From Spizellomyces punctatus DAOM BR117 (taxonomy: Eukaryota), in the NCBI GenBank assembly GCA_000182565.2, contig KQ257453.1: 64,000 nt of DNA, one strand, 5' to 3'. The notes under the pieces are model-generated. The model was not told the origin of the DNA and ran no database searches. It saw nothing but the letters and a program-made list of their open reading frames with translations. This document shows positions 43,556 to 62,187 of this stretch, piece after piece. Numbering within the stretch: position 1 is the first letter of the stretch; the number at the start of each line of letters is the position of its first letter. A program made the translations under genes and the position numbers.

Positions 43556-45343
43556 CTAAGCTACGGCTGGAACACTCCTGCTGAACACTTCTGGTCTACT
43601 GTGTCCATCCAACATTGATTGCACGATTATCAGCATATTGCAGGTGCTCAGCGTATCTCGATTCCAGTAGCGCATCATCCAGGCTTGCTGACAGTTAGGG
43701 TTGGTACAACCCAGCAATCCATGGACTTTTTCAATCTTGCCTTCTCATCATCACCAAGGTCTTGAATGAGGTCATGTTTTGAAGCCTTTTTCAAGGAAGT
43801 CATCAGATGAACAGTGAGGGCAGACAGATGAGGTTTTATACTCGTCGAGAAGGAAGCAGTTAATCCTGTTGTGCTTAAAGAGGGTGCGCCAACCTTTCAT
43901 CTTTGATGAGGTCTGAAATCTTGCAGTTCGACCGGCATCACTCCAATCTCCCATCACAATGGTAAAGTTTTCACTGTACTTGTTGCATAAGTTGGATATG
44001 AGGTTCAATTCACTCTTCTGACGGTTTATAAATGCATGCCACTTCCACTGCATGTGGGCAGGATGCGAATAGAAGTCCTTGTGGCAGTTCCAGTCGGCAC
44101 GGTGAACGAGGAGATAGCGAGTAAAGTCCATGAGGTTCATCATCTTGTGAGATGGTAGTCATGATTCTATGAGGTCAATACTGCCGGCTTTCATCTGCTG
44201 CCATTCTTTTGCAAATCGACGGCTTCCAGTCTCCACAGCTTGCTGGTTGGCAGTGTAGCGAAATGTACCATTGCCGTCTTGGCAGTAGAGAATGTCATGC
44301 TTGTTTGGGTCGATAACAATGACATTCTCTGCTGCTCGACAAGCAGGTAAGTTTTTCTCCACATAAAGCACCGTCACCTCAGCTGTAAGAGTTGTTGCTG
44401 ACTTTTTCCCACTGCTGCACTTCCCATACTTGTCTGCTTCTGGGTGCTTTAGGTATACAGACACTGAGGTTCCATCTGTGGTGATCGAGCCTTCAAACTG
44501 CATACCGTGGCGAGACCGAAAAGCTTTGGTATGTAGATTACAGATGCGCATCCATAAATTGACCTTCTCGACGGCTTCTGCATCTCGCCACGTGATGCAA
44601 AGGATATGAGAGTAGAGGATGACGGTGTCGATCTGCACATGGCTTTGGATGAGGGAGCGGTGAAGTGGGATTGCACTGAACCGTCGAAATCCATGCTTTT
44701 CATATAGGCTTGACAACCGACAGTAGGCAGGGAAGAAGGCAAGAGGGTCTATAGTAACTGAATATGCGAGCGGCTTGTCTTGATCAGGAAATGGCAGGTT
44801 AAGTGTCCACATCTCTTCTAGAAGCTCACTCTCTTCAGCAGTCAAGTCATCCAGTGACTCGGGCATGATATCAAAAAGAAAAACTGACTTTAAGTAGCAT
44901 AGCCGAGTAAAGAAAGCTTTTCATGCATCACTTTTTGGGGGCAGTTGCTGCTTGTGTCCCTTCACGTCGAGCCACAGATTAATGTACCAAAGGAGCATCT
45001 GCATGAAATGTTCTTGAATGTTGACTTTCAGGTTTGTCATCATACTCGCTGTCAGGTAATTGATTGACTGCTGCTTGCCGTGTAGGTTTGGATGAGGAAA
45101 ATCAACGATGCGGCAGTACTGTTGAACATATGGCAGCAAACAATCCCGCTGTGCCTTCTTTGCTTCCTTTCTTGGATGCCAAGCCTCCCCCTTGTTGAGA
45201 AGATAGAGAATTGCTTCAATTGTATCTTCATTTACCATGGGAAAGGTTGGTGCAGATAGGATGTAGAATTTGAGAGTGTGGGAAGCGTGGTTGGTGAGTT
45301 GATGGATGATGGTGATGTAATCTAGAAGCCGTTGGTGGTAGGT
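43556..45343 (-). pseudogene. Fz1: Fanzor1 RNA-guided nuclease, main body (codon 34 to end), six in-frame TGA stops, no frameshift
   Basis: One continuous frame TYHQRLLDYI...ITTDGTSVSV...VIDPNKHD (RuvC-I)...VMGDWS...LDEYKTSSVCPHC...LGCTNPNC...WNRDTLS (RuvC-III)...RSVPAVA-stop. Confidence 0.95.
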
Positions 45344-45393
45344 TCTGGTAGTGCATCACCCATGGTATATACCATGGGTGATGCACTACCAGA
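45344..45393. repeat. Perfect 50-bp terminal palindrome (left)
   Basis: TCTGGTAGTGCATCACCCATGGTAT|ATACCATGGGTGATGCACTACCAGA. Confidence 0.97.
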
Positions 45394-45496
45394 GGGCCCA
45401 TAGTTCATTCAACTCTACCAGGACCCATAGTACCCAGAAATGCCAGAAAACCCATAGTTCGTTCAACTCTACCAGGACCCATAGTACCCGTAGGAG

Positions 45497-45655
45497 CCAT
45501 ATTTAAACACCCTGTCAACAACTATTGCTGAAACACCCACTCCATATTTAAACGCCCTGTCAACAACTATTGCTGAAACGCCCACTCCATATTTAAATGC
45601 CCTGTCAACAACTGTAGCTGAAATGCCCACTCCATATTTAAACGCCCTGTCAACT
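45497..45655. repeat. Subterminal 45-bp tandem repeat, about 3.5 copies (mirrored near 61870-62030)
   Basis: Unit ccatatttaaacgccctgtcaacaactattgctgaaacgcccact starting at 45497, 45542, 45587 and 45632. Confidence 0.9.
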
Positions 45656-46596
45656 ACACTCATATAAGCTCGACCTGCTTTCGTAATGCTTACGTAATCA
45701 ATAACATCCATCATGTCACGTGGCATTCACTCCATCGCTGCCTCCCACATTCATTTAAAAAAGCATGACTCCCCGGGATTGGCTATGCCCCATTTCCTAT
45801 AAGGAAACAGTTGTATTTTGAGGTATTGAGTTCGAACACCTCATGGCCAATTGTTTGGGCACATTTCGAATGTTGTATATGGAATCGTTTACAGAGGAGC
45901 TGGTTGGATTGGGGGGGGGAGGATGCAAGAAGCTAGCCGCCTTTAAGCAAAAACTTGGACTTGCTATTGATAGTCGCTTTTCCCACTTTACGTCAGCAGA
46001 TTACTATGCATACAACATCAAAGCTACGCATACAACTCACGTGACACATCTTCACCATTTTGGATCAAAAGGTACATTCACTTCACTCATTTCCTTCACA
46101 ATCGTTGAACCAAATAGTGTTAATGGAAGTCACGTGATTTGACATGTCTCAGACATGTTTGCTCATCATGGTTCTTCAAATACAGCTTTGGTTTCCGAGG
46201 TTGCCTATGGCAAAAGTAAAGGAACATTCAATCGCTTCACTGCGCATCCTCGCTTCCTTCATAATCATGGAATCATATGGTGTAAATGGAAGTGAATGGT
46301 GACTTGATTCCACATATACTTACACAAAAAACCCAGACCCAAACGTGTGTACATACTTCCACTATATGAGAAAATAATTTTTTTTTTTGAAGAAGCTTTA
46401 TTCTTTTTTTTTTTTTAAAATCTGTCTCTTAACTGAAGCAAACTACACTTTTGGGTCTGGGTTTTTTGGGTTTCTCTCCATTCATCGAAACAAACTTTTA
46501 CTAAATCATCTCGGGTTTGAGCCATTTTATCGAGTCAGCTTCTCACACTACCCGTTTTACCCATCTCTCACTTGTTTCTATTCTGCCATTACTGAT

Positions 46597-48288
46597 TCAA
46601 CGGAAACATGATTGCAGTTTCAATTGGTAGCCCCTAAATACATCCATCATCCTATCCTTCCCCTTTCCTGTGTCAGAAACATAATTTTTGAGAGTTTTAC
46701 GAAGCACATCTACAAGGTGCTTCTTATCTTTGAATCTCAACTTCATGGATTGGGGCATCCATGCTTTGATGTCCTTCAACTCCAAAACCGCATCTTCTGC
46801 TTCCTCCACATTATCCTCCAACCATTCCTCCAAGTTATCTACCACTGCAGATACCTCTTCTCTCCAATCTTTGCATGAGTCTGGAATGTTCTGAAACCGG
46901 TTTTGTAAATACTTCATATGCCCTTCCAGTAACCATTCCAAAATATATGGTTGCCACACATGAAACTTATCTGAAATGAATGGGTCGGCTAGGTACTTGT
47001 ATTCCAATTTGCTGTCCTTCACCTCTTGTTCGGTCTTCAAAAACTTGGAGCGAAAGGGTAACACTAGCATGCGCTCTACAAATGCTGTGTCGGAGGTATC
47101 ATATTTGGGCTGGCAGCGGTCGTTGAATATCATAATCCATTTGGTGGTAAGTGCCACAATTTCATCCTTTTTGCTATGTGGTCTTCAGCCAGTTTCGCTT
47201 GCATTCCCCCCATGGTTCTTTTTGGCTCTTTTGGTATCAAGTGTCTTGTGCTCGTCCATCTCTTCGAAGATTGCGAGCAAGTATCCAGCATATGCAAATA
47301 TTGCAGCATTATGACCATTCTGATTGGAATGCCTGGTGGAACGATATATATGTTCGGCATTTCCCTGCTTTGCATACCCGCCAAAGGCTATTTCCAAAGC
47401 CTGCGCAAACTTTGTCTTGCCATTGTTACCATCGATTTTGTCCTTCAGGACGCGGAAAATTTTCTCCGGATGGTCACCACGGAGGCAATATCCAGCGTAT
47501 ATGTGGGCAATATTGCGCTCCTCCTCCACAGGGAAGAGACGAGTAACAAATTCAAGCCAATCGTTGCGCAATTTGGCAGAAACATCGTTTTCGGTAGAAA
47601 AATAATCGTAGCCTACTGTCTTTGTTATAAGCACATCCTTGCTATATGGTTTCAACTTCCCATCCACAAGGTCCACATAGCCATTATTGCATCCAATCTT
47701 CAAAGGGTCCTTATCACATCTTTGCAGAAAAGTAGCATTGTATACTTCACACTTGAAACAGGAAATGATGGATGTGATGTGAGAGTTGGTAGTCAGCAGT
47801 GATTTTGCGAAGTTCTCTGTTTCCAAGCAGCGTTTGTACTTATAGGCCTTTTTGGAATCGGGGTCCACTTTGGAGAGCAAATCTAAGAAAATTCTGATGC
47901 GTTCGTCCCAGATGGGGTTCATGTGCTTGACCATAAATTGTCGGACAATCTCGCAGTGTTCCGATATAGGTTGCCACCCATCCCTAAACATCCAAACCGT
48001 CGTTCCGTCATACACAAACATCCCATCACTCAGTTTGCGTAGAAGTTGTGCCATAGAGAGATGGCTAGGGGATTTGACTGCTTCTTGTAGTTCGCCGTCG
48101 AGGTGTTCGCCCATCAGGTCCATGTCGGCATCATCGGAAGCATCTTCTTCAACTTCCACAGCATTTTTGATGTGATATTTTTCGTTAAATTCCATTGAAA
48201 CAAGCATGGGTTTGATGACTAATGGAACGTCAAAATTAGTATCCTCTGTAACATATGCCTGACATTCTTCTAAAAGTTCCGTGGCTAC
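46597..48288 (-). pseudogene. D5-like (SF3) primase-helicase, 5'-truncated by the LTR element, one in-frame TGA at 47185
   Basis: D5_N-like KIGCNNGYVDLVDGKLKPYSKDVLITK, Walker A GNNGKTKF, Walker B LAIFEE, motif C region IFND..DTAFVERMLVLPF. ORFs 47185.. and 46597.. are in the same frame. Confidence 0.88.
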
Positions 48289-48860
48289 TGTAGCGAACGA
48301 CTCTGATAAACCGGTTCGCTCAAAGGCATCAGGTGACCACGATTGAGGTTTCCGCAATTGTAACCTAAGCTTCGAAACCCCTAAGATCAAGCTCGGTTCT
48401 GGGCTACACCAGCGCAGCATGAAGGATACGTTACGCAGCCATGATCGATCATGGCGATGGTCCGAGATGGGAAGATCGGACGCCGCCACCCTAATGAAGG
48501 CTACGGAAACTAGTGTAGACATTACCGTAGCATATTCTTGTATAAAAAGAGGAATTCAATAAAATAAGTCGGTGGCCAGAAGCCGTAGCGACACTAAATC
48601 CCCACAACTAGCTTCTCAACTCCAATCTTAGGTTAACAGGAACCTAACAGAGCGCTTCAATGGCCTGATCACCCACACTGAAGCCTCTAAATCCTGCTCG
48701 GTTCACAACTAACTGACTCTCCTTGCCTCTCGCCCTCAAGTCGCTACCGATGCCCAAAGAAAGGATTTGGAGACTACGATTCCTAGTACGGACACCCACA
48801 CAACCTGCTAGGAGACCCAAGTTGTCTTTACCATAGTCTACCAACAAAAAATCTGTTACA
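48289..48860 (+). repeat. 5' LTR (572 bp)
   Basis: TGTAGCG...TGTTACA, direct repeat of 53929-54500, with TATAAAA and AATAAA inside. Confidence 0.95.
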
Positions 48861-48875
48861 TGGTGGAGAAGCGCG
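48861..48875 (+). promoter_or_regulatory. Primer binding site, probably tRNA-Ala
   Basis: TGGTGGAGAAGCGCG directly after the 5' LTR. Complement ends ...UCUCCACCA, typical of tRNA-Ala 3' ends. Confidence 0.7.
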
Positions 48876-49002
48876 ACAAACTGCCTTCCCCTCTCAAATT
48901 CAGCTGAAAACCTTATTCGGTCATACCGAAACTCTTGCGCAAACTGAGATCTGCTCAGGTAGCTACTCGGAAACCTTTTCTCTTGTTTCGGAAACAGACT
49001 TC

Positions 49003-52000
49003 ATGAAACCGAGAATGATGCCGGTCAAACGCTCTCCAACGCGAGGCCACTCACCTGTGATCCAGACTCGTAGTCAGGGTCCTGCGGAGGACGTCGAAGT
49101 CCCTCCCGCAACACGCCCAAGGCGTTCAGGGACCACTTCCGTCGAACCGGAAGCCCCTAACTTGGCCACGATGGCCTCTGAAGTGGCAGCGTTAAAAGAA
49201 GACATTGCCCGCTCGACTGCTGCAATGCAGTTGGCAACTCAAAATCTTACGGAACAGCTTCATAGGCTTTCCGAATGTCAGACAGCGGCGGATGAGCGCC
49301 TCGCACGAGCCTTAGAAGCCCTAGCACATCGCCCACTGCCTGAACAACCTCTCATAGCACGAGCTACAAGAGAACGGTCCGCAACCCCGTGGGAAACGTC
49401 GGACACACCAAGGGAGCGTACCGAACCAAGTTTTTCAGGTCCGGTGCCTCCAATCCAAGTGCCAGCGGCCCCGTGGGCCAGCAACACCAAGGTCGATTCC
49501 TTGAAAGCAAAGGACGTACCCAAGTTTACGGGCAAAAGAAACCAAGACATTGAAGAATGGCTCAACAAAGTCCAACTTCTTCAAAACATTAGCGCAACAT
49601 CGGATGCCAGGATGGTACAGCTCCTACCAGCCATGATAGCCGAGAAAACCCCTGCCGACGCTTGGTTTTACACTCTGGAAGCCCAGGAAACTTGCTCGTG
49701 GACCTGGAAAAGGTGGAAAGAAGAACTGCTTCGAGAGTTCCGAGGTCCCCTAACCGAGTCCAAGTGCAAAACCGAATATGTGCACTGCCACGCGAACCCC
49801 AAAGAATTTCGCAGCTTCCTCGCATTCATTGACCACAAAACTCATCTCCGGCGCCTCGCATACGGCGACCGGGCAAACATAGAATGTCCCACTGACCAGC
49901 ATTTCGACCTAATAGTCGAACAATTGCCCAGCGACATCCAAATCATGGTCAAATCCTGTAACATCACGAACCTGACCAAATTAAAAGACTTCCTGCGCCT
50001 TTATTTCGGCTCTGATGACACCAGAAAACGAGACCCTTGCTACAGCGGTGCTGCTGAAGCTCAGAAGAAGTCACAAAAGACCGGAACCGACAAAGGCCCT
50101 AAGCAGATGGCTCAACATAAAACCGGAAACCCCAAAAAGAGTCGCGACGGCCCTCAGAAGATGGTTCCGGACCCCAACACGGAACCACCGGCACCCTGCA
50201 AATTCTGTCAGAAAAAGCATTGGAATGTTTTCTGCTGGCAGAACCCGAACCGAAAAGGGTTCTACGCCCAATTCATTTCTCGCTACGCGGAACTCGTCCG
50301 ACCCCTGCAAGATGCTATCCAAGAGGGCGTTCGCGAATACCAAGACCTTAAAAAGGGTCGCGCTGACCCGAAGAAAGGCGCTGAAAAGCTCAATTCACCA
50401 TCCATGCTTGACATGGCGGTGGCCCCTACAATAACAGCCACCGGAGCCCGATTTGAGGTTTCGCAACATCCGAAATCTAGCTCCTCAGACCTACCGGCGG
50501 TCAATCTACGCCAATCATCGCTGGCGGACTTACCCATTGACCCCTTTTGTGTCGGACGCCTTGCTCGCAAGCGCCCCGACCAAGGTCTGCGCAGATTTAT
50601 CGCGAAGCGTGAAGTTTCATGGACCGATTCCCGAAACTCTGCCTTTGCAGCCGCCAAGCAGGCTCTGACAACAGCTCCAGTGCTCGCGGCACCCAGAAAA
50701 GGGTTCCCCTACACCCTTCACAGTGATGCTTCCTACACAGCGTTTAATGTCACGCTTGAACAGTTACAGCCGGATGCTTCTAAATGCCCGCTGTGCTACC
50801 ATTCCCGAGGCACCACCACCTCAGAAAAGAAGGCCCCCCCCGTCGAACTCGAGGCCGGATGCCTCATTTGGGGCCTCGGAAAACTCCGCCCATACCTCGA
50901 AGGCCTGCCTTTCACGGTCATTACTGATCACCGAGCTCTTTTGTGGCTCGCTAAATACAAAGGCGAGAACCGTAAGCTTCTCCGCTGGGCCCTCGATCTT
51001 AGTTACTGGTCCGAATGGATGACAATCGTTCACAAACCAGGACGTTTTCACATTGTCGCTGATACACTTTCACGGCTACTAGGAGCGGAAACCCTACTCT
51101 GCTCCACCGCGACCCAAATATGGGTGTCGAAATGCGGAAGACGACGGCTGCGCACCACACCAGCTGCTCTCGCACCTTCCTCGACACTGGCAGATGCCGT
51201 CTTTCGTCTGGCCTTACAGCCTGCACTCATTGCCGCCATCCGCGCTGGCCTCACCGGCCAGCTCCACCCCATAGCCCAACAGGCCTGCATGCTCCTATGG
51301 GAGACCAGCCCCGACACCTACACTACAGCCGACGCGCGCTTTCTTCAGGACTGGCAACGTGCAGATAACCTGCTGTGGCACCGTTTTTCAGTCTCCAAAG
51401 ACCTTTGGCACCTCTACGTGCCCCCTGCTTGCACCCCCAAGGTGCGCAAGCTTTTTCACGAGGGGGGAGGACACTTTGGATTCGAAAGAACCTATGCTAG
51501 AGCTGCAGCACAAGTCTGGTGGCCGAAAATGGCACAAGATTTCAGAAAACATTGCGCAGGATGTGAAACCTGCCAACGCTCAAAAAGGGTACCGCAACTG
51601 ATTCCGGGGTTGTTGAAACCCATACCACCAGCTCCAGGACGCTGGACAGTCATCACGACTGACTTCGTAACCAAGCTCCCACTTACTTCCAGAGGGTACG
51701 ATGCCTTTTGGCTAATAGCTTGTAAATGCTCAAAGAGGATCCACGTATGGCCCCTCAAGAGCACTGCGACAGCTACTCAGGTCGTGGAACTATTTATAGA
51801 ACGCTACGTCCCATTGCACGGCATCCCGGAAACTATCATCTCAGACCGCGACCCCAAATTTACGAGTCGATTTTGGCAGGAGGTCTGCAAAAACCTAAAG
51901 ATTAATCAAGAGCTCACCACAGCCTACCACCCTCAAGGTGATGGACAATCAGAGAGAGACAACGCAACGGTCTTGCAGGTCCTTACCACAATGGTCAACA

Positions 52001-53871
52001 CCCGATTAGACGACTGGGACACCTTTCTTCTGGTTGCAGAATTCATTATCAATGATACGGTACACGAGGCGACAAAAATGATGCGGTTCAAGATGGACCT
52101 AGGCTATGAGCCCCACAATCCACTGGCGGACATCGTTGAAAGGCTGTCAGAAACCAGAAATGCAGATGTGGAAGAGCTCTGTAAACATCTCAGAGACCTA
52201 AACATCCTTATCCGGGATCTGATGATCGAGGCCCAGGACTCGCAGAAAAGATATTACGATTTATCGCGACGACATCTGGAGTTCCGGAGAGGAGATAAGG
52301 TGCTTCTGAGCACAAAAAACCTAGCAGGGTATGAGTCCAAGATCGCTCCGAAATGGCTGGGACCAGTCACGGTGACCGACTGCAACCCTCTCCACGACAA
52401 CTATGAGCTAAAACTGCCAGACAAGATGAGACGACTTCACCCATGGTTTCACATATCAAAATTACGTCCGTACCAGAAGCCTGTCGACGCCGAAACTGAG
52501 GAAAGGATCGTGGAAGCACAAATGGAGGATTCCGACGCTTCAAAAGGCGAGTTCGAAGTGGAAGCGATAGTAGACCATCGAACCAGGCGCGGAAAGCATC
52601 AATTTCGAATACGTTGGGCCGGATACCCACCCCATGAGGATACCTGGGAACCAGAGGAAGCCCTAACAGAGGCTTCCGAAGCCTTAGAAGAGTACTGGAG
52701 ATCCAGAGCTCCCACTAGCGCACTAGTAGAGGACTCCTTGGTAGTCAGCTTTGCAGGCGACACCCTGGCTTACGCTTCTGACCACCAATGCTTCACGATT
52801 TATCCGGACAATAGCTCACGTGATAATCACACCCTCTCACCAGAAAGAAAACCAGTTTTGCGCGGCTTACCTCACCAGTCGAGAACACCACACCAAGCCT
52901 CCCGATCATGCTTATGTGCATCTGAGCTGTCAAAATCAGCCGGCGATGACCTTAAAAGGACGCCCCTGCACACTCCCCCTCTTTTTTCTTCTTCAACTAC
53001 CTATGACCTATCTCCCTTACAGACCTACTCTGCTTTGCAAACCTTGTCTATGGACACCGAGACAAAAGCTTTCGTTTCCAACACCATGACCACCGATATC
53101 CGAGGACAACAAGGAGTCAGCATCCTCTCTACCCTTGAGGAAGGCTATCCCTGGTCAGAAGTAAGCGACGCCTTCGCTGCCGAGAACTCTATCGAGCGGC
53201 TCGGAGCAGCTATGGCCACCTGGGTCGAAGTTTGGATTCGTGAGCTGTTCGAAGACCCAAACAAACCCCTCGAACACTATCGTGGTGAAGATTGGGTGGT
53301 TGACGGGGCTTCGAAGCCGTACGCCACGAGCCAGCCCCTCACGATGCATATTGCGGAGCCCTACAGTAGGGCTTCCGACGGCAGTCAAGCAGCTGTCGGT
53401 ATCATCGCCGACACAAAAAAGATTGGGAAGAGATTACGGGACGTACCCTGCACCGCCTGGCTTGACGCTGGGGTCCCTCAACATGCGGCCGGAAACCCCA
53501 AAACGGCCCGCTTCACCCTCTGGCCCGATCGCGAGGCCCACGATTTCGCGGACATAGCCATCGAAGCCGCGAGAGCAGTGTTGTTAAAGCTAGCCAACGC
53601 AGCTGAAACCACAGAAGAGCAGCTCCGTCCCAAACATCGGGAGCACGCCTATTACCACTTTCGAGCGGTTAACTTGAAAAGGGCCGCAGAGACGTTCACA
53701 GCCCTCTACGTAACCCGAGCCAACGGTTCCAGGACACCTGGAACCCCGGCTCCGGAAGCCACTGACCAAATTTGGTTCTGCGCGAACGTCATGGGGCGCG
53801 CTACCATAATCTGGACGATCAACGAAGACAGCCTTGAAGCTGACGACGACTATCCAGTTGCGTCATGGTAG
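49003..53871 (+). CDS. Gag-(deleted PR/RT)-RNase H-integrase-chromodomain polyprotein with unknown C-terminal extension
   Basis: Gag PKFTG..IEEWL and knuckle CKFCQKKHWNVFC. RNase H LHSDAS..ELEA..ITDHRAL..ADTLSR. IN zinc finger H..GGHFG..CETC. Core TDFV, SDRDPKF, HPQGDGQSE. Chromodomain FEVEAIVDHR..RWAGY..DTWEPE. Confidence 0.92.
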   Translation: MKPRMMPVKRSPTRGHSPVIQTRSQGPAEDVEVPPATRPRRSGTTSVEPEAPNLATMASEVAALKEDIARSTAAMQLATQNLTEQLHRLSECQTAADERLARALEALAHRPLPEQPLIARATRERSATPWETSDTPRERTEPSFSGPVPPIQVPAAPWASNTKVDSLKAKDVPKFTGKRNQDIEEWLNKVQLLQNISATSDARMVQLLPAMIAEKTPADAWFYTLEAQETCSWTWKRWKEELLREFRGPLTESKCKTEYVHCHANPKEFRSFLAFIDHKTHLRRLAYGDRANIECPTDQHFDLIVEQLPSDIQIMVKSCNITNLTKLKDFLRLYFGSDDTRKRDPCYSGAAEAQKKSQKTGTDKGPKQMAQHKTGNPKKSRDGPQKMVPDPNTEPPAPCKFCQKKHWNVFCWQNPNRKGFYAQFISRYAELVRPLQDAIQEGVREYQDLKKGRADPKKGAEKLNSPSMLDMAVAPTITATGARFEVSQHPKSSSSDLPAVNLRQSSLADLPIDPFCVGRLARKRPDQGLRRFIAKREVSWTDSRNSAFAAAKQALTTAPVLAAPRKGFPYTLHSDASYTAFNVTLEQLQPDASKCPLCYHSRGTTTSEKKAPPVELEAGCLIWGLGKLRPYLEGLPFTVITDHRALLWLAKYKGENRKLLRWALDLSYWSEWMTIVHKPGRFHIVADTLSRLLGAETLLCSTATQIWVSKCGRRRLRTTPAALAPSSTLADAVFRLALQPALIAAIRAGLTGQLHPIAQQACMLLWETSPDTYTTADARFLQDWQRADNLLWHRFSVSKDLWHLYVPPACTPKVRKLFHEGGGHFGFERTYARAAAQVWWPKMAQDFRKHCAGCETCQRSKRVPQLIPGLLKPIPPAPGRWTVITTDFVTKLPLTSRGYDAFWLIACKCSKRIHVWPLKSTATATQVVELFIERYVPLHGIPETIISDRDPKFTSRFWQEVCKNLKINQELTTAYHPQGDGQSERDNATVLQVLTTMVNTRLDDWDTFLLVAEFIINDTVHEATKMMRFKMDLGYEPHNPLADIVERLSETRNADVEELCKHLRDLNILIRDLMIEAQDSQKRYYDLSRRHLEFRRGDKVLLSTKNLAGYESKIAPKWLGPVTVTDCNPLHDNYELKLPDKMRRLHPWFHISKLRPYQKPVDAETEERIVEAQMEDSDASKGEFEVEAIVDHRTRRGKHQFRIRWAGYPPHEDTWEPEEALTEASEALEEYWRSRAPTSALVEDSLVVSFAGDTLAYASDHQCFTIYPDNSSRDNHTLSPERKPVLRGLPHQSRTPHQASRSCLCASELSKSAGDDLKRTPLHTPPLFSSSTTYDLSPLQTYSALQTLSMDTETKAFVSNTMTTDIRGQQGVSILSTLEEGYPWSEVSDAFAAENSIERLGAAMATWVEVWIRELFEDPNKPLEHYRGEDWVVDGASKPYATSQPLTMHIAEPYSRASDGSQAAVGIIADTKKIGKRLRDVPCTAWLDAGVPQHAAGNPKTARFTLWPDREAHDFADIAIEAARAVLLKLANAAETTEEQLRPKHREHAYYHFRAVNLKRAAETFTALYVTRANGSRTPGTPAPEATDQIWFCANVMGRATIIWTINEDSLEADDDYPVASW

Positions 53872-53918
53872 AAGCGAGGTTCGGGCACTCACAGACGAGT
53901 CGCCGAACCTTCTTTTTC

Positions 53919-53928
53919 GAAGGGGGGA
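53919..53928 (+). promoter_or_regulatory. Polypurine tract
   Basis: GAAGGGGGGA immediately before the 3' LTR. Confidence 0.85.
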
Positions 53929-54500
53929 TGTAGCAAATGACTCTGATAAACCGGTTCGCTCAAAGGCATCAGGTGACCATGATTGAGGTTTCCGCAATTG
54001 TAACCTAAGCTTCGAAACCCCTAAGATCAAGCTCGGTTCTGGGCTACACCAGCGCAGCGTGAAGGATATGTTACGCAGCCATGATCGATCATGGCAATGG
54101 TCCGAGATGGGAAGATCGGATGCCGCCACCCTAATGAAGGCTACGGAAACTAGTGTAGACGTTACCGTAGCATATTCTTGTATAAAAAGAGGAATTCAAT
54201 AAAATAAGTCGGCGGCCAGAAGCCGTAGCGACACTAAATCCCCACAACTAGCTTCTCAACTCCAATCTTAGGTTAACAGGAACCTAACAGAGCGCTTCAA
54301 CGGCCTGATCACCCACACTGAAGCCTCTAAATCCTGCTCGGTTCACAACTAACCGACTCTCCTTGCCTCTCGCCCTCAAGTCGCTACCGACGCCCAAAGA
54401 AAGGATTTGGAGACTACGATTCCTAGTACAGACACCCACATAACCTGCTAGGAGACCCAAGTCGTCTTTACCGTAGTCTACCAACAAAAAATCCGTTACA
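53929..54500 (+). repeat. 3' LTR (572 bp)
   Basis: TGTAGCA...CGTTACA. Confidence 0.95.
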
Positions 54501-54501
54501 A

Positions 54502-57500
54502 AAAGGACTGACAATACTCGCGAACACTGGAATCGTTACACTGGATGCAACAACTGATTCATCTTCAACAGTCACTGGCGCTCTACAGGTGGCAGGAGGA
54601 GTTGGCATAAAAGGAACGGTTTACATGGGTAAGTATGCTATTATATCAAGTCCCACCGCAGCAGCCTTCCAGATAAATAATGGGGCATTCGGCTTCGCTG
54701 ACTCAGCTGGACAATGGTTCACAAACACATTAGCGAATGATTACGTCTTGCGAACAAGCACCAGTAATTTGCATATTGGTACAAACGGAGCGACGGCTTC
54801 TAATCTGGATATTCTCTCATCCAGGAATGTTATTATCAATATGACGACAGATTGTACTTCCACAACAACTGGCTCCTTTCAAGTCAAAGGTGGAGTTGGC
54901 ATCGCTAAATCACTGTACATTGGAGGGGATGTATACACAAATGGTGTGAAATTGGCTACTGAAAGTTCTCTAACAGCATCCGTTGCTACGAAGCAAAATG
55001 CAAGTCCTTTACTCGATGCAATAAGTGGTTTAACAACGACACCTAATACATTCATCATGGGGGCATCGAACGGTTTTACAGCGACACCTGTTTCCACTAT
55101 TCTTGGTGGATACCAACCTCTTCTTACTACATCATCCTCATTGAATGTGAATTCTCTGATGACCAGTGGTGGGATATTTGTACAAGGGGCTATGGATATG
55201 GTGTTCCGTGTTGATAATGTAGGCAATGGACTCTTGACAGGTGGCTTACTTGTGGAAAAGGATCTAAATGTTGAAGGACTGATCATTCAAAATGGTGTCA
55301 AGGTGGCAATGCAACAATGGGCTGTTGCTATGATGACTAGCATGACAACTCCTCTCAGTCAATCCTTGACATTGCTTCAAACACTTGTTCAGAATAACAA
55401 GACCGCCGCAGATATGGCGCTTGCTACTAAACAAAGTGCTTCTCCATTACTCAATTCCATCAGTGGTTTAATACCGGCGGCTAACACATTCATCATGGGA
55501 ACACCCACAGGGTTCTCAGTTGTTCCTACATCGAATATACTTTCCTCATATCAACCTCTTATTACCTCATCGACTGCGCTATCATTTAACAGCGCTACTG
55601 TTGGCAGGGGTATAACCATTCAAAATGGCGCAGCATCTACAACAATGTCCTTAGTGAACACTGGGAGTAACATTACATGGGGCATGAGAGTTGCCGGAAG
55701 CACAGGAGACGGAACATTATCAGCAGGCGGATTCGGTCTAAATAGTTCTTATAACAATACAGGCTTCGTTCTGAGAGTTTCCAATACAGGCGTAATGCAG
55801 ATACCAAACACAACTGATTCATCTAGTGTGACAACAGGTGCTTTCCAGGTATCAGGTGGAGTTGGCATAGGAAAAACTCTAACCCTAGGAGCAGGTGGAG
55901 GAGGATTGCAGCCTGCGGCCATAGTCATCAATGCGCCTTCAAGTGCTACTGCATCTATGGCCGTTCTGATTAGTAACAATGCTGCTTCGAGTAATTCATG
56001 GGGTATATACCATGCTGCAACTAATGGAACAGGTATACTTACCAATGGGAGCCTCGGGTTTTATAACTATGGAACTAGCGCCCATCAATTCATCCTCAAA
56101 GCCAATGGAACCATTGCAATCACTTCCACTACAGACTCATCGTCAACTATAACGGGCGCATTGCAGGTATCAGGAGGTGCAGGAATTGCTAAATCACTGT
56201 ACGTCGGTGGTGACATTTTCTCCAATAATCTCAAACTTGCAACCGAGAGTTATGTAGGGATGGCCATTGCTAATAAACAGGCATCGAGTCCACTATTATC
56301 ATCCATAAGCGGTCTTGCACTATCTGCAAATTCATTCATTGTTGGAAGTTCTGCTACATCATTCTCCACGAAAACTGTTGAAGAGGTGAAGTCAATTCTA
56401 GGTGTTACGAATGTCGACCTCTCAGGGAAGCAAAATGCAAGTCCTTTACTCGATTCCATTGCCTCGATGTCACCAATGAGCAATATGTTTCTCATGGGAG
56501 ATGATGTCCAAGGATTCACTCTCGCAAATGATGTCACTGTGCGAAGTATTTTAAACATTGTCAACTATGCCCCCAGCATATCAGCACTGCAAACATCGAA
56601 ACAAGATGTTATAATGTCTTCCAGCAATCTGTTGGTAAATACAATTCTTGCTAATGATACATCCGATGCACAAACCGTATCAAGTGGGGCTCTACAGGTT
56701 AAAGGAGGTATAGGGGTTTCTAAAAGCATCTTCTCAGGTGGAAACATTACAGGAAAAGTTCTTATAGCAGCCTCTACAGGTGGATATTTCAAGTTGAGAA
56801 GCGACACTCCCTCTATGAAAGGTGACTACACTATCTCCTACAACAACTCCGGAGACGCCCTTCACGTCCACCTCGCCGGCTCGTCTGATAGCATAGACCA
56901 ACATCGTTATGAATTCGGTCATTATTCCAGTGATACCTTTGGAACATGGAATAGCTGATTCTCTGTTAACACCTACACCGGAGACCTCATCTTGTCCGGT
57001 AATCTAACTATTGGTTTGCCACTTAATGGGCTACGGGCTATTATTTTGAAAAATCTCGACCCAGGAACCAATGCTTGTGCCATCCAATACTTCCAGAATG
57101 CCGCAGGGAGTGCTGTTATGTTTTTGAACGGAAACAATAGGAGTGTGGATGGGGGAGTAAATACATTTACAATAAGGAACGATGCAGGGGGAGTGCGATT
57201 GCAAGCGCAGGGAGCGAAGGGTATTACTATTGCATCATCGACAGGAAATGTCATAGTTGAAAGCACCACTCCGGCTTTATCGAGTACAACAGGTGCATTG
57301 GTGGTGAATGGAGGTGTCGCTGTTGGAGCCCATGTAGTGGCTGGAGGGAATCTTTATAGCAATGGCCCAGTTTACTCGAATGGTCAGGTGTGCGCAACTC
57401 AGTCATGGGTGACCGGTCAGACATTCCTAAGAAATGTTCAAGTTTTCAAACTGTTGACTAAAGATGTATGGCAATCCAACAATGCCTCGAAAGTTTTCTA

Positions 57501-57792
57501 TGTTTCAACACCAGGCAAGGTACTTATGGAGTGGACAATACGCTTGCATGGCAATGCAAACTCAAATGGTACACTTTCCATCTTCCTTGGACAAAGTGCC
57601 GGCTCAATGCCTCTCGTATATGCTTCAGACTTCAATTTCAACAGTGGAATTAACACTACGCTGACAGCCACATTCATTCTTACAGGGATGGCCGATAACG
57701 TGGCTTACTTCACAAATTTTAGTATCAGTCAGGCTGCTCCTGATAATACCACAGATGTTACCCTCATCAAAATCACGGAACTCGGCCCTTAG
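54502..57792 (+). pseudogene. Viral tail-fibre/spike-like repeat protein, 5'-truncated, one in-frame TGA at 56956
   Basis: About 6 copies of TTDSSSxxTGA(L/F)QVxGG(V/A)GI and 4 of KQxxSPLLxxIxx. ORFs 54589..56958 and 56992..57792 share a frame, which is open back to the LTR edge. Confidence 0.75.
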
Positions 57793-57843
57793 AAACTTAG
57801 TGCACTACGCTATGATTAAAAAACAAAGCTATGTAAACTTACA

Positions 57844-58164
57844 ATGCAACGTGTTGATATAGATTATCATTTGGTATTCAATATCAGGGATGCCATCAAA
57901 GGTGACATGGATAAGTTTTGGAGATATTGCAAGAGCATGTTGACCGGTAGTGACAAGGCAAAAATCATACTGTATCTTAAAAAAAATCAAGAGAACCAAC
58001 CGATTTTTGATAAAATCATGTCAATTGTCCACCTGAGCAAATTGGATCATTTATGCTTCAACTGTACCAGTTATCTCGCAATTTTGAATGATTGTATATT
58101 GCTAGGGCATGAACATAATGAAAAACTGTTCATTTTAGAGATGCGGATGGAGGAGGTTCAGTAG
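57844..58164 (+). CDS. Hypothetical protein of the virus-like element (106 aa)
   Basis: Intronless ATG ORF tightly packed after the fibre gene. Confidence 0.5.
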   Translation: MQRVDIDYHLVFNIRDAIKGDMDKFWRYCKSMLTGSDKAKIILYLKKNQENQPIFDKIMSIVHLSKLDHLCFNCTSYLAILNDCILLGHEHNEKLFILEMRMEEVQ

Positions 58165-58187
58165 GATACCATGAGCCACAGTTCTAT

Positions 58188-58547
58188 TCAACACACAACA
58201 ACCTCAATATCCATAGAACTAGATAGACTCTTAGTACATTCAAGGATTAAGTCTAATTGTTCAACTGCAAATGATTCCTTTTCACTCTTATGCTGCATTT
58301 GACAATATGTTCCTATAGTGGTAGTAGATAGTAAGAGAATCATACCAGGCCAACTAGTTTCAAAATGTGTAGGATATTCGAAAACATATTGAGCTGCCCA
58401 TGAAACTGGCTCAAGTGCAGCCACAAGACGTTCTTCTCTACCATCCCCAGCGCCCGTGAGTATTCCATCTATCGCTCGGTGAATAACCTGGGAATAAAAA
58501 ACACATCGGAACTGCTTTGCATTTTCAGGTTCTTGGTCAGACGACAT
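58188..58547 (-). CDS. Hypothetical protein of the virus-like element (119 aa)
   Basis: Intronless ATG ORF converging on the previous one, with an AT-rich upstream region. Confidence 0.5.
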   Translation of the reverse strand: MSSDQEPENAKQFRCVFYSQVIHRAIDGILTGAGDGREERLVAALEPVSWAAQYVFEYPTHFETSWPGMILLLSTTTIGTYCQMQHKSEKESFAVEQLDLILECTKSLSSSMDIEVVVC

Positions 58548-58716: not shown

Positions 58717-59662
58717 ATGTCTTTCTGTAACGACGAGGACGTCTTCGAGAGATCGCGAGTAAGCCCAAATCGGACGCGGGAAGCACGAATCGCGTGACCA
58801 ACTCCACCGATTGGGTTACCGCGACCGAAAAAACCGGTTCGGAGAATGGCAATTGGCGCATTAGATTTCAGCGTGCCTCGTACAACCTGTGGAGGCCCGA
58901 GCCAGTGCGGAAAAGGAAGAGATCGGTACCGCCACCAATAAATCAGTTGCGGTGCAGCGACACCCATTAGTTTAGTTTAGTTTAACAGTTTATCCAAGAA
59001 TCTTGTATAAAAAGGATGTATTCAATAAAATAAGTCGGGGGCAGAAGCCGTAGCGACAAAAAATCCCCATAACTCGCTTCTCAACTCCAATCTTAGGTTA
59101 ACAGGAACCTAACAGAGCGCTTCAACGGCCTGATCACCCGTACCGAAGCCTCTAAATCCTGCTCGGTTCACAACTAACCGACTCTCCTTGCCTCTCGCCC
59201 TCAAGTCGCTACCGACGCCCAAAGAAAGGATTTGGAGACTACGATTCCTAGTACGGACACCCACACAACCTGCTAGGAGACCCAAGTTGTCTTTACTGTA
59301 GTCTACCAACAAAAAATCCGTTACATTTCCCTGTTACTCCAAAGCATGAACACTTTGCTAATTGCATCATGCTCTTCAAGACGGACATGTTGATGGCAAT
59401 GGATAAGCGAGGAAGGTGCATCCATATCAACACTTCCAACTTTCCTGAAGTTCGCCGTATTATGAATGATGAAGATTTGTTTCGCATCTTTGTTCATAAC
59501 AAAACCAAAAGGAGCGTGGGGGAAAAGAATCGGATTTGCCCTGTTTGTTCGCGCAACTATGATATTCCTGATAAAGTCAAAACGGCAACAGAAAAGGAGA
59601 TGGCTCTCTCCGGTGTTTGTAGTGATGCCTGCTGGGATACAGCAACTAAATTCAATGAGTAA
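58717..59662 (+). pseudogene. Small Zn-finger-like protein interrupted by a solo LTR
   Basis: Removing the LTR and one TTTC restores MSFPVTPKHEHFANCIMLFKTD...CPVC...CSDACW. Confidence 0.7.
58726..59325 (+). mobile_element. Solo LTR (600 bp) with 4-bp TSD TTTC
   Basis: TGTAACG...CGTTACA termini. The 3' part (about 59000-59325) is nearly identical to the other LTRs. TTTC at 58722-25 and 59326-29. Confidence 0.92.
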
Positions 59663-59854
59663 GAAGTGAATGTGAGCGGGGGCGTGGGGGGCATGTGGGG
59701 GGCGACCTTTTGAATGGTAAAATTTTGGGACCAGCTAGAATGCGGGGATGCATGAGAAGCAGACACGTCATTGTTCTACATAACCATGATGTAGTAGTTG
59801 ATGTTTACTAATTCTTATAAATTGAATGCATACCATGCTATAGCTAAATCCAAA

Positions 59855-60336
59855 ATGGCTTCCCTCTTTCCCCCAGAAATAGTAACCTTCATCGACGAGT
59901 ATTGTGACATTGACACTAAGATTAAACTATGCAAGGCAACCGGTCTCGGATGGGAGAGGGTCAAAATACCAAATGAGCCACAGTTTCTTCATAAGATGAA
60001 GAGAATCAATCAGTTGCCTTTCTATGATGAATATGTATGCGACCATGAGACAGAATGCCACCCCTTTTTTGGAAATATGAATGCAACGACAAGTTACTAC
60101 GCATAGAGATGCATCAAGAAGGCAACAACGAGTTTTACTTTGTTCTACTCAAAGATTTTGAGAACGAAAACTATTCGTATGCAATGTATCAAGAGTATTA
60201 CCATTATGGTCATGAGGAAGGCTGTATTTTCAGAGAGTATGATGGTAGGGATAAGCGATCAGATTTTATAGCACATCGTGGCAGGGACAGGCTGGTAATG
60301 AGACAATTGTGGGGCAGGGCGATGGATGTTTTTTAG
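59855..60336 (+). pseudogene. Duplicated small gene, copy 1 (frameshifted near 60065), F-box-like N-terminus
   Basis: MASLFPPEIVTFIDEYCDIDTKIKLCKA. Similarity to copy 2 continues in another frame (KYEC..IEMHQE..EFYFVLLKDF). Confidence 0.7.
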
Positions 60337-60456
60337 GGCGTGGGGGGCATACACGAGAGGCAGATACGTCGTTGTTCTACATAACCATGATGTAGTAGTT
60401 GATGTTTACTAATTCTTATAAATTGAATGCATACCATGCTATAGCTAAAATCCAAA

Positions 60457-60897
60457 ATGGCTTCCCTCTTTCCCCCAGAAATAGTAACCTTCATCGACGA
60501 GTATTGTGACATCGACACTAAGATTAAACTATGCAAGGCAGTTAGTCTCGGATGGGAGAGGGTCAAAATACCGAATGAGCCACAGTTTCTTCATAAGATG
60601 AAGAGAATCGATCAGTTTTATAAGATGATGAGAATCAATCAATTGCCTAAATTTGTATGTGACCATATAAAATGCCGCACCGTAACATTTTTGGGGAAAT
60701 ATGAATGCATAGAGATGCATCAGGAAGACAATGACGAGTTTTACTTTGTTCTACTCAAAGACTTCCATGATGAGGATTATTCATATGCATTTTATCGAGA
60801 GGATTACCGTCATCAGGTGTTATGGCAAAGGAGAGATATTGCATTTTTTGAGGTGTTATGGCAACGGAAGGAGATTGAAAGGGCGAATAAAGAGTGA
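60457..60897 (+). CDS. Duplicated small gene, copy 2 (146 aa), F-box-like N-terminus
   Basis: Intact paralogue of 59855..60336 with the same upstream motif. Confidence 0.7.
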   Translation: MASLFPPEIVTFIDEYCDIDTKIKLCKAVSLGWERVKIPNEPQFLHKMKRIDQFYKMMRINQLPKFVCDHIKCRTVTFLGKYECIEMHQEDNDEFYFVLLKDFHDEDYSYAFYREDYRHQVLWQRRDIAFFEVLWQRKEIERANKE

Positions 60898-60916
60898 GAA
60901 TGTATGGAGGGATGTA

Positions 60917-62182: not shown

Positions 62183-62187
62183 TAGGT

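What the first reader, a model, noticed from the sequence alone, without database searches (positions are those of the whole stretch)
45344..45393. Perfect 50-bp palindrome at both termini: opened hairpin telomere or telomere-resolvase-like site
Seen: the identical, loopless palindrome TCTGGTAGTGCATCACCCATGGTAT|ATACCATGGGTGATGCACTACCAGA forms the exact first and last 50 bp and abuts the TSD. Known: protelomerases such as N15 TelN act on palindromes of similar size to make covalently closed hairpin ends, and pox- and parvoviruses use terminal hairpins. Inference: a linear hairpin-capped genome nicked 25 nt from the tip, unfolded and integrated would give exactly this. Resolving the palindrome centres would release a hairpin-capped linear episome. 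That would be a transposition cycle coupling hairpin telomeres with TSD-forming integration.
Basis: partly seen in the sequence, partly recalled or inferred. Interest (0 to 1): 0.88.

Follow-up and report, generated by a model that had tools for sequence, protein, structure and literature searches.

The report
Palindrome-tipped ends of a decayed chytrid virus-like element
A broken-down virus-like mobile element in the chytrid fungus Spizellomyces punctatus starts and ends with the same perfect 50-bp palindrome, a type of end recently reported in protist virophage-like elements and thought, without proof, to fold into replication-priming hairpins.

Summary
The same perfect, loopless 50-bp palindrome lies at 45344-45393 and 62133-62182. 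These are the outermost 50 bp of 1,267-bp terminal inverted repeats (TIRs). Both copies abut a 5-bp target-site duplication (TSD), TAGGT.

The 16.8-kb insertion lies in Spizellomyces punctatus DAOM BR117. It is a decayed, low-copy remnant of a polinton-like-virus or virophage-type element. What survives:
- a replicase remnant (D5_N plus SF3 helicase) next to the left TIR; intact relatives add a PolA-like "TVpol" domain
- a truncated fibre gene
- a recombinant nested Ty3/gypsy element that deleted the core.

No integrase, capsid, nickase or resolvase gene survives.

A July 2026 preprint (Haro et al.) reports 52-nt palindromes at TIR extremities next to TSDs in Halocafeteria endogenous virophages and PLVs. 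There they go with non-pPolB replicases, and the authors propose hairpin-primed replication. So this is a new, fungal member of a just-described kind, not a new kind.

Covalently closed hairpins and a telomere resolvase have no support here. I could not reach any other copy, so conservation is untested. Interest is moderate.

The parts
45339..45343 (.). Left copy of the 5-bp target-site duplication, TAGGT
   Evidence: Identical pentamer at 62183-62187.
45344..45393 (.). Left terminal perfect 50-bp palindrome (25+25, centre TATA)
   Evidence: As single-stranded DNA it folds to a 23-bp-stem hairpin, -28.2 kcal/mol, z -11.5, matched by 0 of 200 shuffles.
45344..46610 (.). Left terminal inverted repeat (1,267 bp)
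   Evidence: It differs from the right arm at 24 positions (23 transitions, 1 indel). The first difference is 64 nt from the tip.
45393..45485 (.). 27-bp-period repeat array directly inside the palindrome, carrying CCCATRGT and CTACCAG motifs
   Evidence: period 27, 3.4 copies. CCCATRGT starts at 45359, 45397, 45424, 45451 and 45478. 12 of its 16 window occurrences lie in the terminal 157 bp of the two ends.
45497..45654 (.). 45-bp tandem repeat array (3.5 copies) in the left TIR
   Evidence: 93% matches.
46597..48288 (-). Replicase remnant: D5_N plus SF3 helicase part of a TVpol-type PolA-helicase gene. It is 5'-truncated at the LTR border and has one in-frame stop at 47185-47187. Its own stop codon lies inside the TIR.
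   Evidence: Pfam D5_N 4e-11. PHROG DNA primase 2.5e-24. 47-50% identity to chytrid proteins. Single reading frame. Only residues 237-782 of relative P0001 are found anywhere in the window.
48289..54500 (+). Nested Ty3/gypsy chromovirus with 572-bp LTRs and an intact 1,622-aa ORF. It has no target-site duplication, so it is a recombinant of two insertions that deleted the host element's core.
   Evidence: Flanking pentamers GCTAC and AAAAG do not match.
54502..57792 (+). Fibre-like repeat protein gene. It is 5'-truncated at the LTR border and has one in-frame stop at 56956-56958.
   Evidence: The frame is open from 54502, and paralogue P0007 (1,330 aa) aligns with its residues 654-1329 across the stop. 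100% identical to SPPG_02563, and several homologues carry PF13884.
59001..59326 (+). Partial solo LTR of the same chromovirus family
   Evidence: 94-95% identity to the 3' 326 bp of the LTRs.
59744..60808 (+). About 600-bp tandem duplication carrying paralogous small ORFs (59801-60106 and 60457-60897)
   Evidence: 80% identity. No Pfam family.
60917..62182 (.). Right terminal inverted repeat (1,266 bp), with mirrored 45-bp (61872-62029) and 27-bp (62041-62133) arrays
62133..62182 (.). Right terminal perfect 50-bp palindrome
62183..62187 (.). Right copy of the 5-bp target-site duplication, TAGGT

Best explanation
The 16,839-bp insertion is the decayed, low-copy remnant of a linear double-stranded DNA virus-like element of the polinton-like-virus/virophage type, in the chytrid Spizellomyces punctatus.

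Shown:
- It entered a repeated host sequence with a 5-bp staggered cut.
- The integrating molecule already had the full open 50-bp palindrome at both tips.
- A replicase gene (TVpol type: PolA-like domain, D5_N, SF3 helicase in intact relatives) sits directly against one TIR.
- Arrays of short repeats with a 27-bp period begin inside the palindrome.
- Recombination between two retrotransposon insertions then deleted the core, and both surviving genes picked up a stop codon.

Inferred:
- In the active ancestor the palindromic tips folded back as 23-25-bp hairpins once the ends were unwound.
- The hairpin gave a 3'-OH to start or complete end replication without a terminal protein.
- Copying through the fold, followed by a nick at its base, would regenerate a palindrome of exactly the same length at the very end.
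- The neighbouring repeat array would then be the binding site for the replicase or the integrase.
- A DDE (rve-type) integrase, now lost, joined the open ends to the chromosome.

My odds: identity of the element about 0.85; palindrome present before integration about 0.9; hairpin role in replication about 0.45.
For: Ends and insertion:
- Exact termini, TIRs and TSD.
- Hairpin energy: -28.2 kcal/mol, reached by 0 of 200 shuffles.
- Motif array: CCCATRGT at 27-bp steps starting inside the palindrome; 12 of 16 window occurrences lie in the two terminal 157-bp stretches.

Replicase:
- Remnant: Pfam D5_N, PHROG primase, 5 chytrid or Logan relatives at 38-50% identity.
- AlphaFold model of relative P0001: pLDDT 87.1.
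- Residues 292-782 match ASFV PrimPol and poxvirus D5/E5 helicases: Z 30.6, 470 aligned, rmsd 4.9.
- Residues 1-268 match family A polymerases (T7, Pol theta, Klenow): Z 14-14.8, about 250 aligned, rmsd 3.3-3.8.
- PolA-SF3 fusions are the 'TVpol' replicases of virophages and PLVs (passages of PMC3671162, and of 10.64898/2026.10.13.758929).

Deletion:
- The LTR element has no TSD.
- Replicase residues 1-236 are absent from the whole window.
- The fibre frame is open from the LTR border.

Copy number:
- Run X10 depth averages about 25.7 in the TIR, 12.7 in the interior and 470-1,030 in the flank.

Precedent:
- Haro et al. 2026 (abstract and sections 7 and 10 read) report 52-nt palindromes at TIR extremities next to TSDs.
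- The palindromes were preferentially linked with non-pPolB replicases and particular RVE integrases, and the authors give a hairpin-priming model.
- A PLV 'end module' of TIR plus primase-helicase is described in PMC11296320 (passages).
- A PLV group in S. punctatus is reported in PMC7805220 (passages).
Against: - No capsid, packaging ATPase, integrase or nuclease gene is present in this copy. Apart from the replicase, the fibre gene and the retrotransposon, the longest frame in 57800-60950 is 150 aa. Membership of the virus group is therefore inferred from a replicase remnant, a fibre gene, the TIRs and the TSD.
- No second copy or relative with readable ends was found, so conservation of the palindrome in this lineage is untested.
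- TVpol is predicted in the literature to be a primase-polymerase. If so, it may not need a hairpin primer.
- One preprint links PolA replicases mainly with tyrosine recombinases, not DDE integrases.
- Both ends being identical is not two independent observations. TIR arms can be homogenised, and the read allele ratios hint at that.
- Zero mutations in 100 bp of palindrome is not remarkable at 1.9% divergence between the arms.
Confidence: 0.5

Rival explanations
1. The palindrome is a dyad-symmetric protein-binding site and nothing more. An integrase/transposase dimer or the replicase recognises two inverted 25-bp half-sites at each tip, and no hairpin ever forms.
For: Each arm holds one CTACCAG and one CCCATGGT motif. 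The same motifs continue inward as a 27-bp-period array. Such arrays are typical of transposase or origin-binding sites (general knowledge).
Against: Protein sites rarely need 25 of 25 perfect symmetry with no spacer. A similar size (52 nt) at the same position in unrelated hosts with other replicases fits a structural role better. The symmetry ends exactly at the molecule's tip, which a copy-back process produces automatically.
Confidence: 0.2
2. [quoted passage not shown] The 50-bp palindrome is an opened telomere, or a telomere-resolvase (TelN/ResT-like) target whose cleavage at the TAT|ATA axis would release a hairpin-capped episome.
For: The geometry fits. The size is similar to the phage N15 tel site (recalled, no call). 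The helicase part of the replicase is closest in fold to the D5/E5 and C962R proteins of poxviruses and ASFV, viruses known to have hairpin telomeres (general knowledge). A preprint notes an unexplained link between PolA/AEP replicases and tyrosine recombinases, the enzyme class that includes telomere resolvases (the link to resolvases is my inference).
Against: No resolvase or tyrosine-recombinase domain was found in the element or in the replicase relatives. Resolution inside the chromosome would leave two hairpin-capped chromosome breaks. The outer arm stops at 25 bp, so a nick-and-unfold step is needed anyway. A 5-bp TSD points to DDE-type joining of open 3' ends. No joints were seen in reads, but those reads were too short to tell.
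Confidence: 0.12
3. The palindrome is a one-off accident. A terminal 25 nt snapped back and was copied during a damaged replication or repair event in the ancestor. It was then spread to the other end by TIR homogenisation and carried along without function.
For: Haro et al. name accidental annealing after single-strand breaks as the alternative, citing Kapitonov and Jurka. Only one copy is available here. Read allele ratios suggest arm-to-arm conversion can occur.
Against: The same feature recurs in five Halocafeteria subtypes at about the same length. The element integrated successfully with these ends, so the integrase accepted them. The motif array is in register with the palindrome.
Confidence: 0.12
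4. The palindrome is an assembly artefact.
For: Palindromes can arise from chimeric reads. The listed read output does not show the 50 bp covered on its own.
Against: The identical structure sits at both ends and each copy abuts a matching TSD. Reads and contigs of independent runs cover the adjoining TIR (tables 2 and 8).
Confidence: 0.02

Closest known systems
Terminal palindromic repeats of endogenous virophages (subtypes 1, 2, 5, 6) and PLV subtype 4 in Halocafeteria seosinensis (Haro et al., bioRxiv 2026-07-30, 10.64898/2026.07.28.741278)
   Same: The palindrome lies at the TIR extremity next to the TSD. The size is about the same (52 nt there, 50 bp here). The replicase is not a pPolB. 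The element is integrated, and other transposable elements have invaded it.
   Different: The host is a chytrid fungus, not a stramenopile. This copy has lost its capsid and integrase genes, so its subtype and integrase class cannot be compared. I saw no sequences from that paper, so I could not test any sequence relationship between the palindromes.
Parvovirus terminal palindromes and rolling-hairpin replication
   Same: Palindromes lie at the very ends of a linear genome. An SF3 helicase is in the replicase. Nicking at the hairpin base and copying regenerates a terminal palindrome of fixed length.
   Different: Parvovirus genomes are single-stranded and about 5 kb, their hairpins are imperfect, and they use an HUH nickase. 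Here the element is double-stranded with 1.27-kb TIRs, the palindrome is perfect, and the replicase relatives have a PolA-like domain with no HUH domain detected.
Poxvirus and ASFV hairpin telomeres with D5/E5 and C962R primase-helicases
   Same: They have long TIRs, and the helicase module shares its fold (Z 28-31).
   Different: Those telomeres are covalently closed, incompletely paired loops resolved from concatemer junctions. Their N-terminal domain is an AEP primase, not PolA-like. They do not integrate with a TSD.
Phage N15 telRL site and TelN protelomerase
   Same: The target is a perfect palindrome of about 50 bp with an AT-rich centre.
   Different: No protelomerase gene was found. 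The N15 tel site is internal in the circular form and is cut at its axis. Here the palindrome is the outermost sequence of an integrated element.
TVpol (PolA-SF3 helicase) replicases and the TIR-adjacent 'end module' of PLVs and virophages (PMC3671162; PMC11296320; 10.64898/2026.10.13.758929)
   Same: The replicase architecture of the intact relatives matches. The replicase gene lies directly against a TIR.
   Different: The window copy lacks the PolA-like domain and carries a stop codon. No tyrosine recombinase lies next to it.
Polintons/Mavericks
   Same: They are large elements with long TIRs and a short TSD.
   Different: This element has no pPolB, no rve integrase and no protease. Its TSD is 5 bp, not the 6 bp I recall for Polintons (no call). 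Its termini are TC...GA.

Membership tests
Palindrome-tipped TIR elements of Polisuviricotina (as described by Haro et al. 2026) | Palindrome inside the TIR extremity, directly next to the TSD, at both ends | tested here: met
Palindrome-tipped TIR elements of Polisuviricotina (as described by Haro et al. 2026) | Replication gene that is not a protein-primed PolB | tested here: met
   The replicase remnant has D5_N plus SF3 helicase. Relatives have a PolA-like N-terminal domain. No PolB domain appears in any ORF scanned.
Palindrome-tipped TIR elements of Polisuviricotina (as described by Haro et al. 2026) | RVE integrase of a particular clade | tested here: not met
   The only rve domain belongs to the nested Ty3/gypsy element, and none is found elsewhere. 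The core of this copy is deleted, so the ancestor's state is unknown.
Polinton-like viruses / virophages | Morphogenetic module: double-jelly-roll major capsid protein, minor capsid protein, packaging ATPase | tested here: not met
   No such domain was found. Apart from the replicase, the fibre gene and the retrotransposon, the longest frame in 57800-60950 is 150 aa. This copy is at most a remnant and cannot be filed as a complete member.
Polinton-like viruses / virophages | TIRs and a 5-7-bp TSD on integration | tested here: met
   The 5-7-bp range is from PMC7805220.
TVpol-type replicase (PolA-like domain fused to SF3 helicase) | N-terminal family-A-polymerase-like domain | tested here: not met
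   The domain is absent from the window copy: only residues 237-782 of P0001 are matched. It is present in relatives: residues 1-268 match T7, Klenow and Pol theta at Z 14-14.8 with about 250 residues aligned.
TVpol-type replicase (PolA-like domain fused to SF3 helicase) | D5_N domain and SF3 helicase | tested here: met
   Pfam D5_N 4e-11. The relative's model matches D5/E5/C962R at Z 28-31. PDB sequence hits at about 1e-5.
Telomere-resolvase (protelomerase) systems | Element-encoded TelN/ResT-like resolvase | tested here: inconclusive
   None was found in the remaining ORFs or in replicase relatives, but the element's core is deleted.
Telomere-resolvase (protelomerase) systems | Covalently closed hairpin ends in the free form | not testable with these tools
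   The reads available were 38-51 nt and gave no joints. That is uninformative for a 50-bp palindrome.
Rolling-hairpin replicons (parvovirus-like) | HUH nickase for terminal resolution | tested here: inconclusive
   No HUH family was found in the Pfam scans of 30 relatives or in the fold matches. Absence from these lists does not exclude it, and the nickase could be a separate lost gene.
Rolling-hairpin replicons (parvovirus-like) | Palindrome forming the extreme end of the linear genome | tested here: met
   for the integrated form.
Polintons/Mavericks | Protein-primed PolB plus rve integrase | tested here: not met

The most novel reading that the evidence does not exclude
Open 50-bp terminal palindromes are the duplex form of fold-back (hairpin) telomeres. 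They would be used by a whole class of PolA/AEP-helicase-driven polinton-like viruses and virophages, conserved from stramenopiles to fungi. These small viruses would then replicate by a rolling-hairpin or pox-like end mechanism instead of protein priming, and insert the resolved open ends with a DDE integrase. The unexplained tyrosine recombinases that travel with PolA/AEP replicases could be the end-resolving enzymes.
Probability: 0.3. Interest if true: 0.8.

Novelty: new member of a known kind. Interest (0 to 1): 0.5.

Why it matters
It is unknown how polinton-like viruses and virophages without a protein-primed polymerase copy their linear ends. A second, independent occurrence has now turned up: the palindrome has the same size and the same position next to the TSD, and the host belongs to a different eukaryotic supergroup. 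This makes an accidental origin less likely.

It also gives the hairpin-priming idea a fungal system to test. S. punctatus is a culturable chytrid (general knowledge, no call). On its own, though, this copy is dead and single, so it adds a data point and not a mechanism.

Tried and rejected
Searches for other copies or relatives with readable ends:
- Exact 25-mer arm in viral contigs: 0 hits.
- 22-mer in metagenome contigs: 0 hits.
- Replicase alignment A2 in viral contigs: 5 distant loci at 21-33% identity. 0 of these 5 had a terminal palindrome or a TIR longer than 2 bp at its locus ends. One, L004, has a direct terminal repeat and so maps as a circle.
- A2 in metagenome contigs: 173 pattern matches, 0 confirmed.
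- Fibre protein in viral contigs: 0 hits.
- Alignment A4 in viral contigs: 14 pattern matches, 0 confirmed.
- Alignments A1 and A3 were too divergent for the tool.
- The 'phages' collection, tried in the hope that it held virophage records: 364 records matched, and all 40 listed were bacteriophage primases.

Tools and papers not available:
- No whole genome is held for the window.
- Supplements are closed, so I could not see the Bellas and Sommaruga table that gives the S. punctatus PLV locus. I cannot say whether this locus is the one they report.
- Kapitonov and Jurka 2006 is not held.

Reads:
- Read laying gave no joints and no strand-switching reads. The reads are 38-51 nt, so this says nothing about hairpin forms.

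Literature searches:
- I searched for hairpin or palindromic ends in these viruses.
- Only Haro et al. describe the feature. A figure legend in 10.64898/2026.10.13.758929 marks 'palindromic repeat'.
- PMC7805220 and 10.64898/2026.06.19.733378 have 0 occurrences of 'hairpin' or 'palindrom' in their main text.

Readings considered and dropped:
- Transib: it also has a 5-bp TSD, but the termini are not heptamer-like (recalled, no call).
- Nested insertion into a 50-bp foldback element: this would need the inner element's ends to equal the outer arms.
- A 25-bp TSD: the outer arms are inverted relative to each other, not direct.

Full report
**1. The observation**

None is expected by chance (0 of 100 shuffles). 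It is a perfect palindrome of 25+25 bases with no spacer. The next longest perfect loopless palindrome in the 64 kb has 10-base arms, and 20 shuffled windows gave longest arms of 6-11.

The two copies are the outermost 50 bp of terminal inverted repeats (TIRs) of 1,267 and 1,266 bp at 98.1% identity. Outside each lies TAGGT...GGTGGTAGGT|TCTGG... and ...CCAGA|TAGGTCTC.... This is a 5-bp target-site duplication (TSD).

**2. What the element is**

*Host.* The host is Spizellomyces punctatus DAOM BR117. The long ORF at 54625-56958 is 100% identical to SPPG_02563. The surrounding ORFs carry ordinary eukaryotic domains such as HR1/C2, ATR and DUF3684.

*Replicase remnant.*
- A minus-strand frame at 46597-48288 runs into the inner edge of the left TIR.
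- It matches Pfam D5_N (4e-11) and phage primase-helicase families (2.5e-24).
- It is 38-50% identical to 5 longer proteins: three from the chytrids Powellomyces, Spizellomyces and Geranomyces, and two from unnamed Logan contigs.
- It is one reading frame with a single in-frame stop at 47185-47187.
- Only residues 237-782 of the closest relative, P0001, are represented anywhere in the window.
- The family is large: 13,468 representatives at E<=0.001 and 136 at E<=1e-30.

*Fold of an intact relative.*
- I modelled P0001 with a 30-sequence alignment and obtained pLDDT 87.1.
- Residues 292-782 match ASFV PrimPol (Z 30.6, 470 aligned, rmsd 4.9) and the poxvirus D5/E5 helicases (Z 28-29).
- Residues 1-268 match family A DNA polymerases such as T7, Pol theta and Klenow (Z 14-14.8, about 250 aligned, rmsd 3.3-3.8).
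- Pfam finds no family for that N-terminal domain in any of the 30 relatives. D5_N is found in 17 of 30 and DUF5906 in 17 of 30.
- A PolA-like domain fused to an SF3 helicase is the 'TVpol' replicase known from Sputnik, OLV and many polinton-like viruses (passages read in PMC3671162, and 10.64898/2026.10.13.758929).
- The intact relatives therefore show neither an HUH nickase nor a resolvase domain.

*Fibre gene.*
- A frame at 54502-57792 has repeats typical of virus fibres. Several homologues carry the PF13884 chaperone domain.
- It is open from the retrotransposon border onward and has one in-frame stop at 56956-56958.
- The 1,330-aa paralogue P0007 aligns with its residues 654-1329 across that stop.

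*Nested retrotransposon and deletion.*
- A Ty3/gypsy chromovirus lies between the two gene remnants, at 48289-54500. It has 572-bp LTRs at 97% identity and an intact 1,622-aa ORF with RNase H, integrase and chromodomain.
- Its flanking pentamers, GCTAC and AAAAG, do not match. Both neighbouring genes are cut exactly at its borders.
- The simplest reading is that two separate insertions recombined and deleted everything between the replicase's N-terminal domain and the middle of the fibre gene.

*Other content.*
- A partial solo LTR lies at 59001-59326.
- A roughly 600-bp tandem duplication lies at 59744-60808.
- In 57800-60950 the longest stop-to-stop frame is 150 aa, and none matches a Pfam family convincingly.
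- This copy therefore has no capsid, ATPase, integrase, nuclease or resolvase gene.
- It is a decayed remnant. I assign it to the polinton-like-virus/virophage world on four grounds: replicase type, fibre gene, TIRs and TSD. No capsid gene supports this.
- Bellas and Sommaruga (PMC7805220, passages read) report one integrated PLV and a PLV group named after S. punctatus. The locus table is in a supplement I could not open, so I cannot say whether this is that locus.

**3. Copy number and the insertion site**

I laid short ChIP-seq reads of the same species label (X9-X11, 38-51 nt) and Logan contigs (X3) on 44344-48288.

- In run X10, mean depth was about 25.7 over the TIR bins, about 12.7 over the interior bins and 470-1,030 over the left flank.
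- The TIR is therefore present twice per interior copy. The element is low-copy and consistent with single copy, though there is no single-copy host gene in the stretch to calibrate against.
- The flank is a high-copy repeat whose other members differ from the window copy mostly by T>C and A>G.
- Loose ends at 45341 run on into sequence resembling the window's right flank. For example, two X3 contigs continue to ...GCAAAGGAAGT, as at 62211-62221.
- Uninterrupted members of the flank repeat therefore exist, and the element is a true insertion at these borders.
- No joints were reported. With reads this short, that says nothing about fold-back molecules.

**4. Anatomy of the ends**

- As single-stranded DNA the 50-mer folds into a hairpin with a 23-bp stem and a 4-nt loop at -28.2 kcal/mol (z -11.5; 0 of 200 shuffles fold as well).
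- Directly inside it lies an array with a 27-bp period (3.4 copies), followed by a 45-bp array (3.5 copies).
- The octamer CCCATRGT starts at 45359, 45397, 45424, 45451 and 45478, and once inverted at 45371. 12 of its 16 occurrences in the window lie in the two terminal 157-bp stretches.
- CTACCAG behaves likewise, with 8 of 14 occurrences there.
- Each palindrome arm thus holds one copy of each motif. This looks like a binding array for a terminal protein.
- The two TIR arms differ at 24 positions: 23 transitions and 1 indel, the nearest 64 nt from the tip.
- The insertion is therefore not recent.
- No change in 100 bp of palindrome is unremarkable at this divergence. I expect about one.

**5. 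Mechanism**

*What is shown.* The palindromes abut the TSD at both ends, so the molecule that integrated was a linear duplex with the full, open palindrome at each tip. It was joined with a 5-bp stagger.

*What I infer.*
- The tips fold back when the helicase unwinds them.
- The fold supplies a 3'-OH for end replication.
- Copying through the fold, then a nick at its base, restores a terminal palindrome of the same length. This would explain why the symmetry stops exactly at the molecule's end.
- The repeat array would bind the replicase or the integrase.
- A DDE-type integrase, lost with the core, would have done the joining.

*Precedent.*
- This is essentially the model drawn by Haro et al. 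(bioRxiv 2026-07-30; abstract and sections 7 and 10 read).
[quoted passage not shown] - They name accidental annealing as the alternative and call for a wider survey.
- The chytrid element matches on position, size and replicase class.
- The placement of the replicase against the TIR fits the 'end module' idea of PMC11296320 (passages).

*Points against my reading.*
- TVpol is predicted to prime as well as polymerise, so a hairpin primer may be unnecessary.
- One preprint links PolA replicases mostly with tyrosine recombinases.
- I have one dead copy and no relatives' ends.
- The two ends are not independent, because TIR arms can be homogenised.

**6. Rival explanations**

- *Protein-binding dyad only (0.2).* The motif array supports it. 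The perfect, spacer-free symmetry ending at the tip, and the recurrence of the same size elsewhere, count against it.
But no resolvase is seen, resolution in the chromosome would break the chromosome, and a nick-and-unfold step is needed in any case.
- *One-off snap-back accident (0.12).*
- *Assembly artefact (0.02).*

**7. Novelty and verdict**

- The structure is real and not ordinary.
- The kind was described in July 2026, with the same mechanistic idea. I therefore rate this a new member of a known kind, the first I could find in a fungus.
- My searches found no mention of palindromic or hairpin ends for chytrid elements. PMC7805220 has 0 occurrences of either word in its main text.
- Its value is as an independent second occurrence in another eukaryotic supergroup.
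- Its weakness is that the copy is decayed and alone.
- Interest: 0.5.

Noticed in passing
window 44344-45343 (left flank) and 62183 onward; tRNA-Gln(CTG) at 62675-62746 (-): The element sits inside a high-copy host repeat. Read depth there is 37-81 times that of the element's interior in run X10. At most listed variant sites, over 80% of reads carry C or G where the window copy has T or A. This looks like C-to-T decay of this copy. A tRNA-Gln gene lies about 500 bp beyond the right end. I did not identify the nature of the repeat, and its ORFs have no Pfam or NCBIfam family.
   Followed up: partly
window 48289-54500, 59001-59326: Remains of at least three insertions of one Ty3/gypsy chromovirus family lie inside a single virus-like element. 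One retains an intact 1,622-aa ORF, and the full copy lacks a TSD. This parallels the retrotransposon invasion of endogenous virophages discussed by Haro et al..
   Followed up: partly
window 45992, 46027, 46177, 46202, 46212, 46305: At six sites where the two TIR arms differ, run X10 reads carry the right-arm letter in 31/35, 27/33, 42/45, 44/50, 34/40 and 23/29 reads. About half would be expected. Yet TIR depth is twice the interior depth. Possible causes are arm-to-arm gene conversion in the sequenced culture or uneven ChIP enrichment. Unresolved.
   Followed up: no
window 54841-57789: The annotated host protein SPPG_02563 (961 aa) aligns across both fibre ORFs, with about 22 gap columns, including the part around the in-frame stop at 56956-56958. 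The gene model probably joins the parts of a viral fibre pseudogene with an intron.
   Followed up: partly
window 59744-60808: A roughly 600-bp tandem duplication (80% identity) carries two paralogous small ORFs (101 and 146 aa, both containing ...SLFPPEIVTFIDEYCDIDTKIKLCKA...). A conserved 35-bp upstream block ending in TTATAAA lies at 58634, 59787 and 60388. They match no known family.
   Followed up: no
protein P0004 (SPPG_08461), elsewhere in the same genome: The other S. punctatus homologue of the replicase aligns only from residue 297 of P0001 onward and has a different N-terminal region of about 370 aa. This suggests domain swapping in the replicase family.
   Followed up: no
locus L004 (IMG/VR contig, 18,097 bp): This distant replicase relative begins and ends with the same roughly 29-base stretch, so the contig maps as a circle and has no TIRs.
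   Followed up: no
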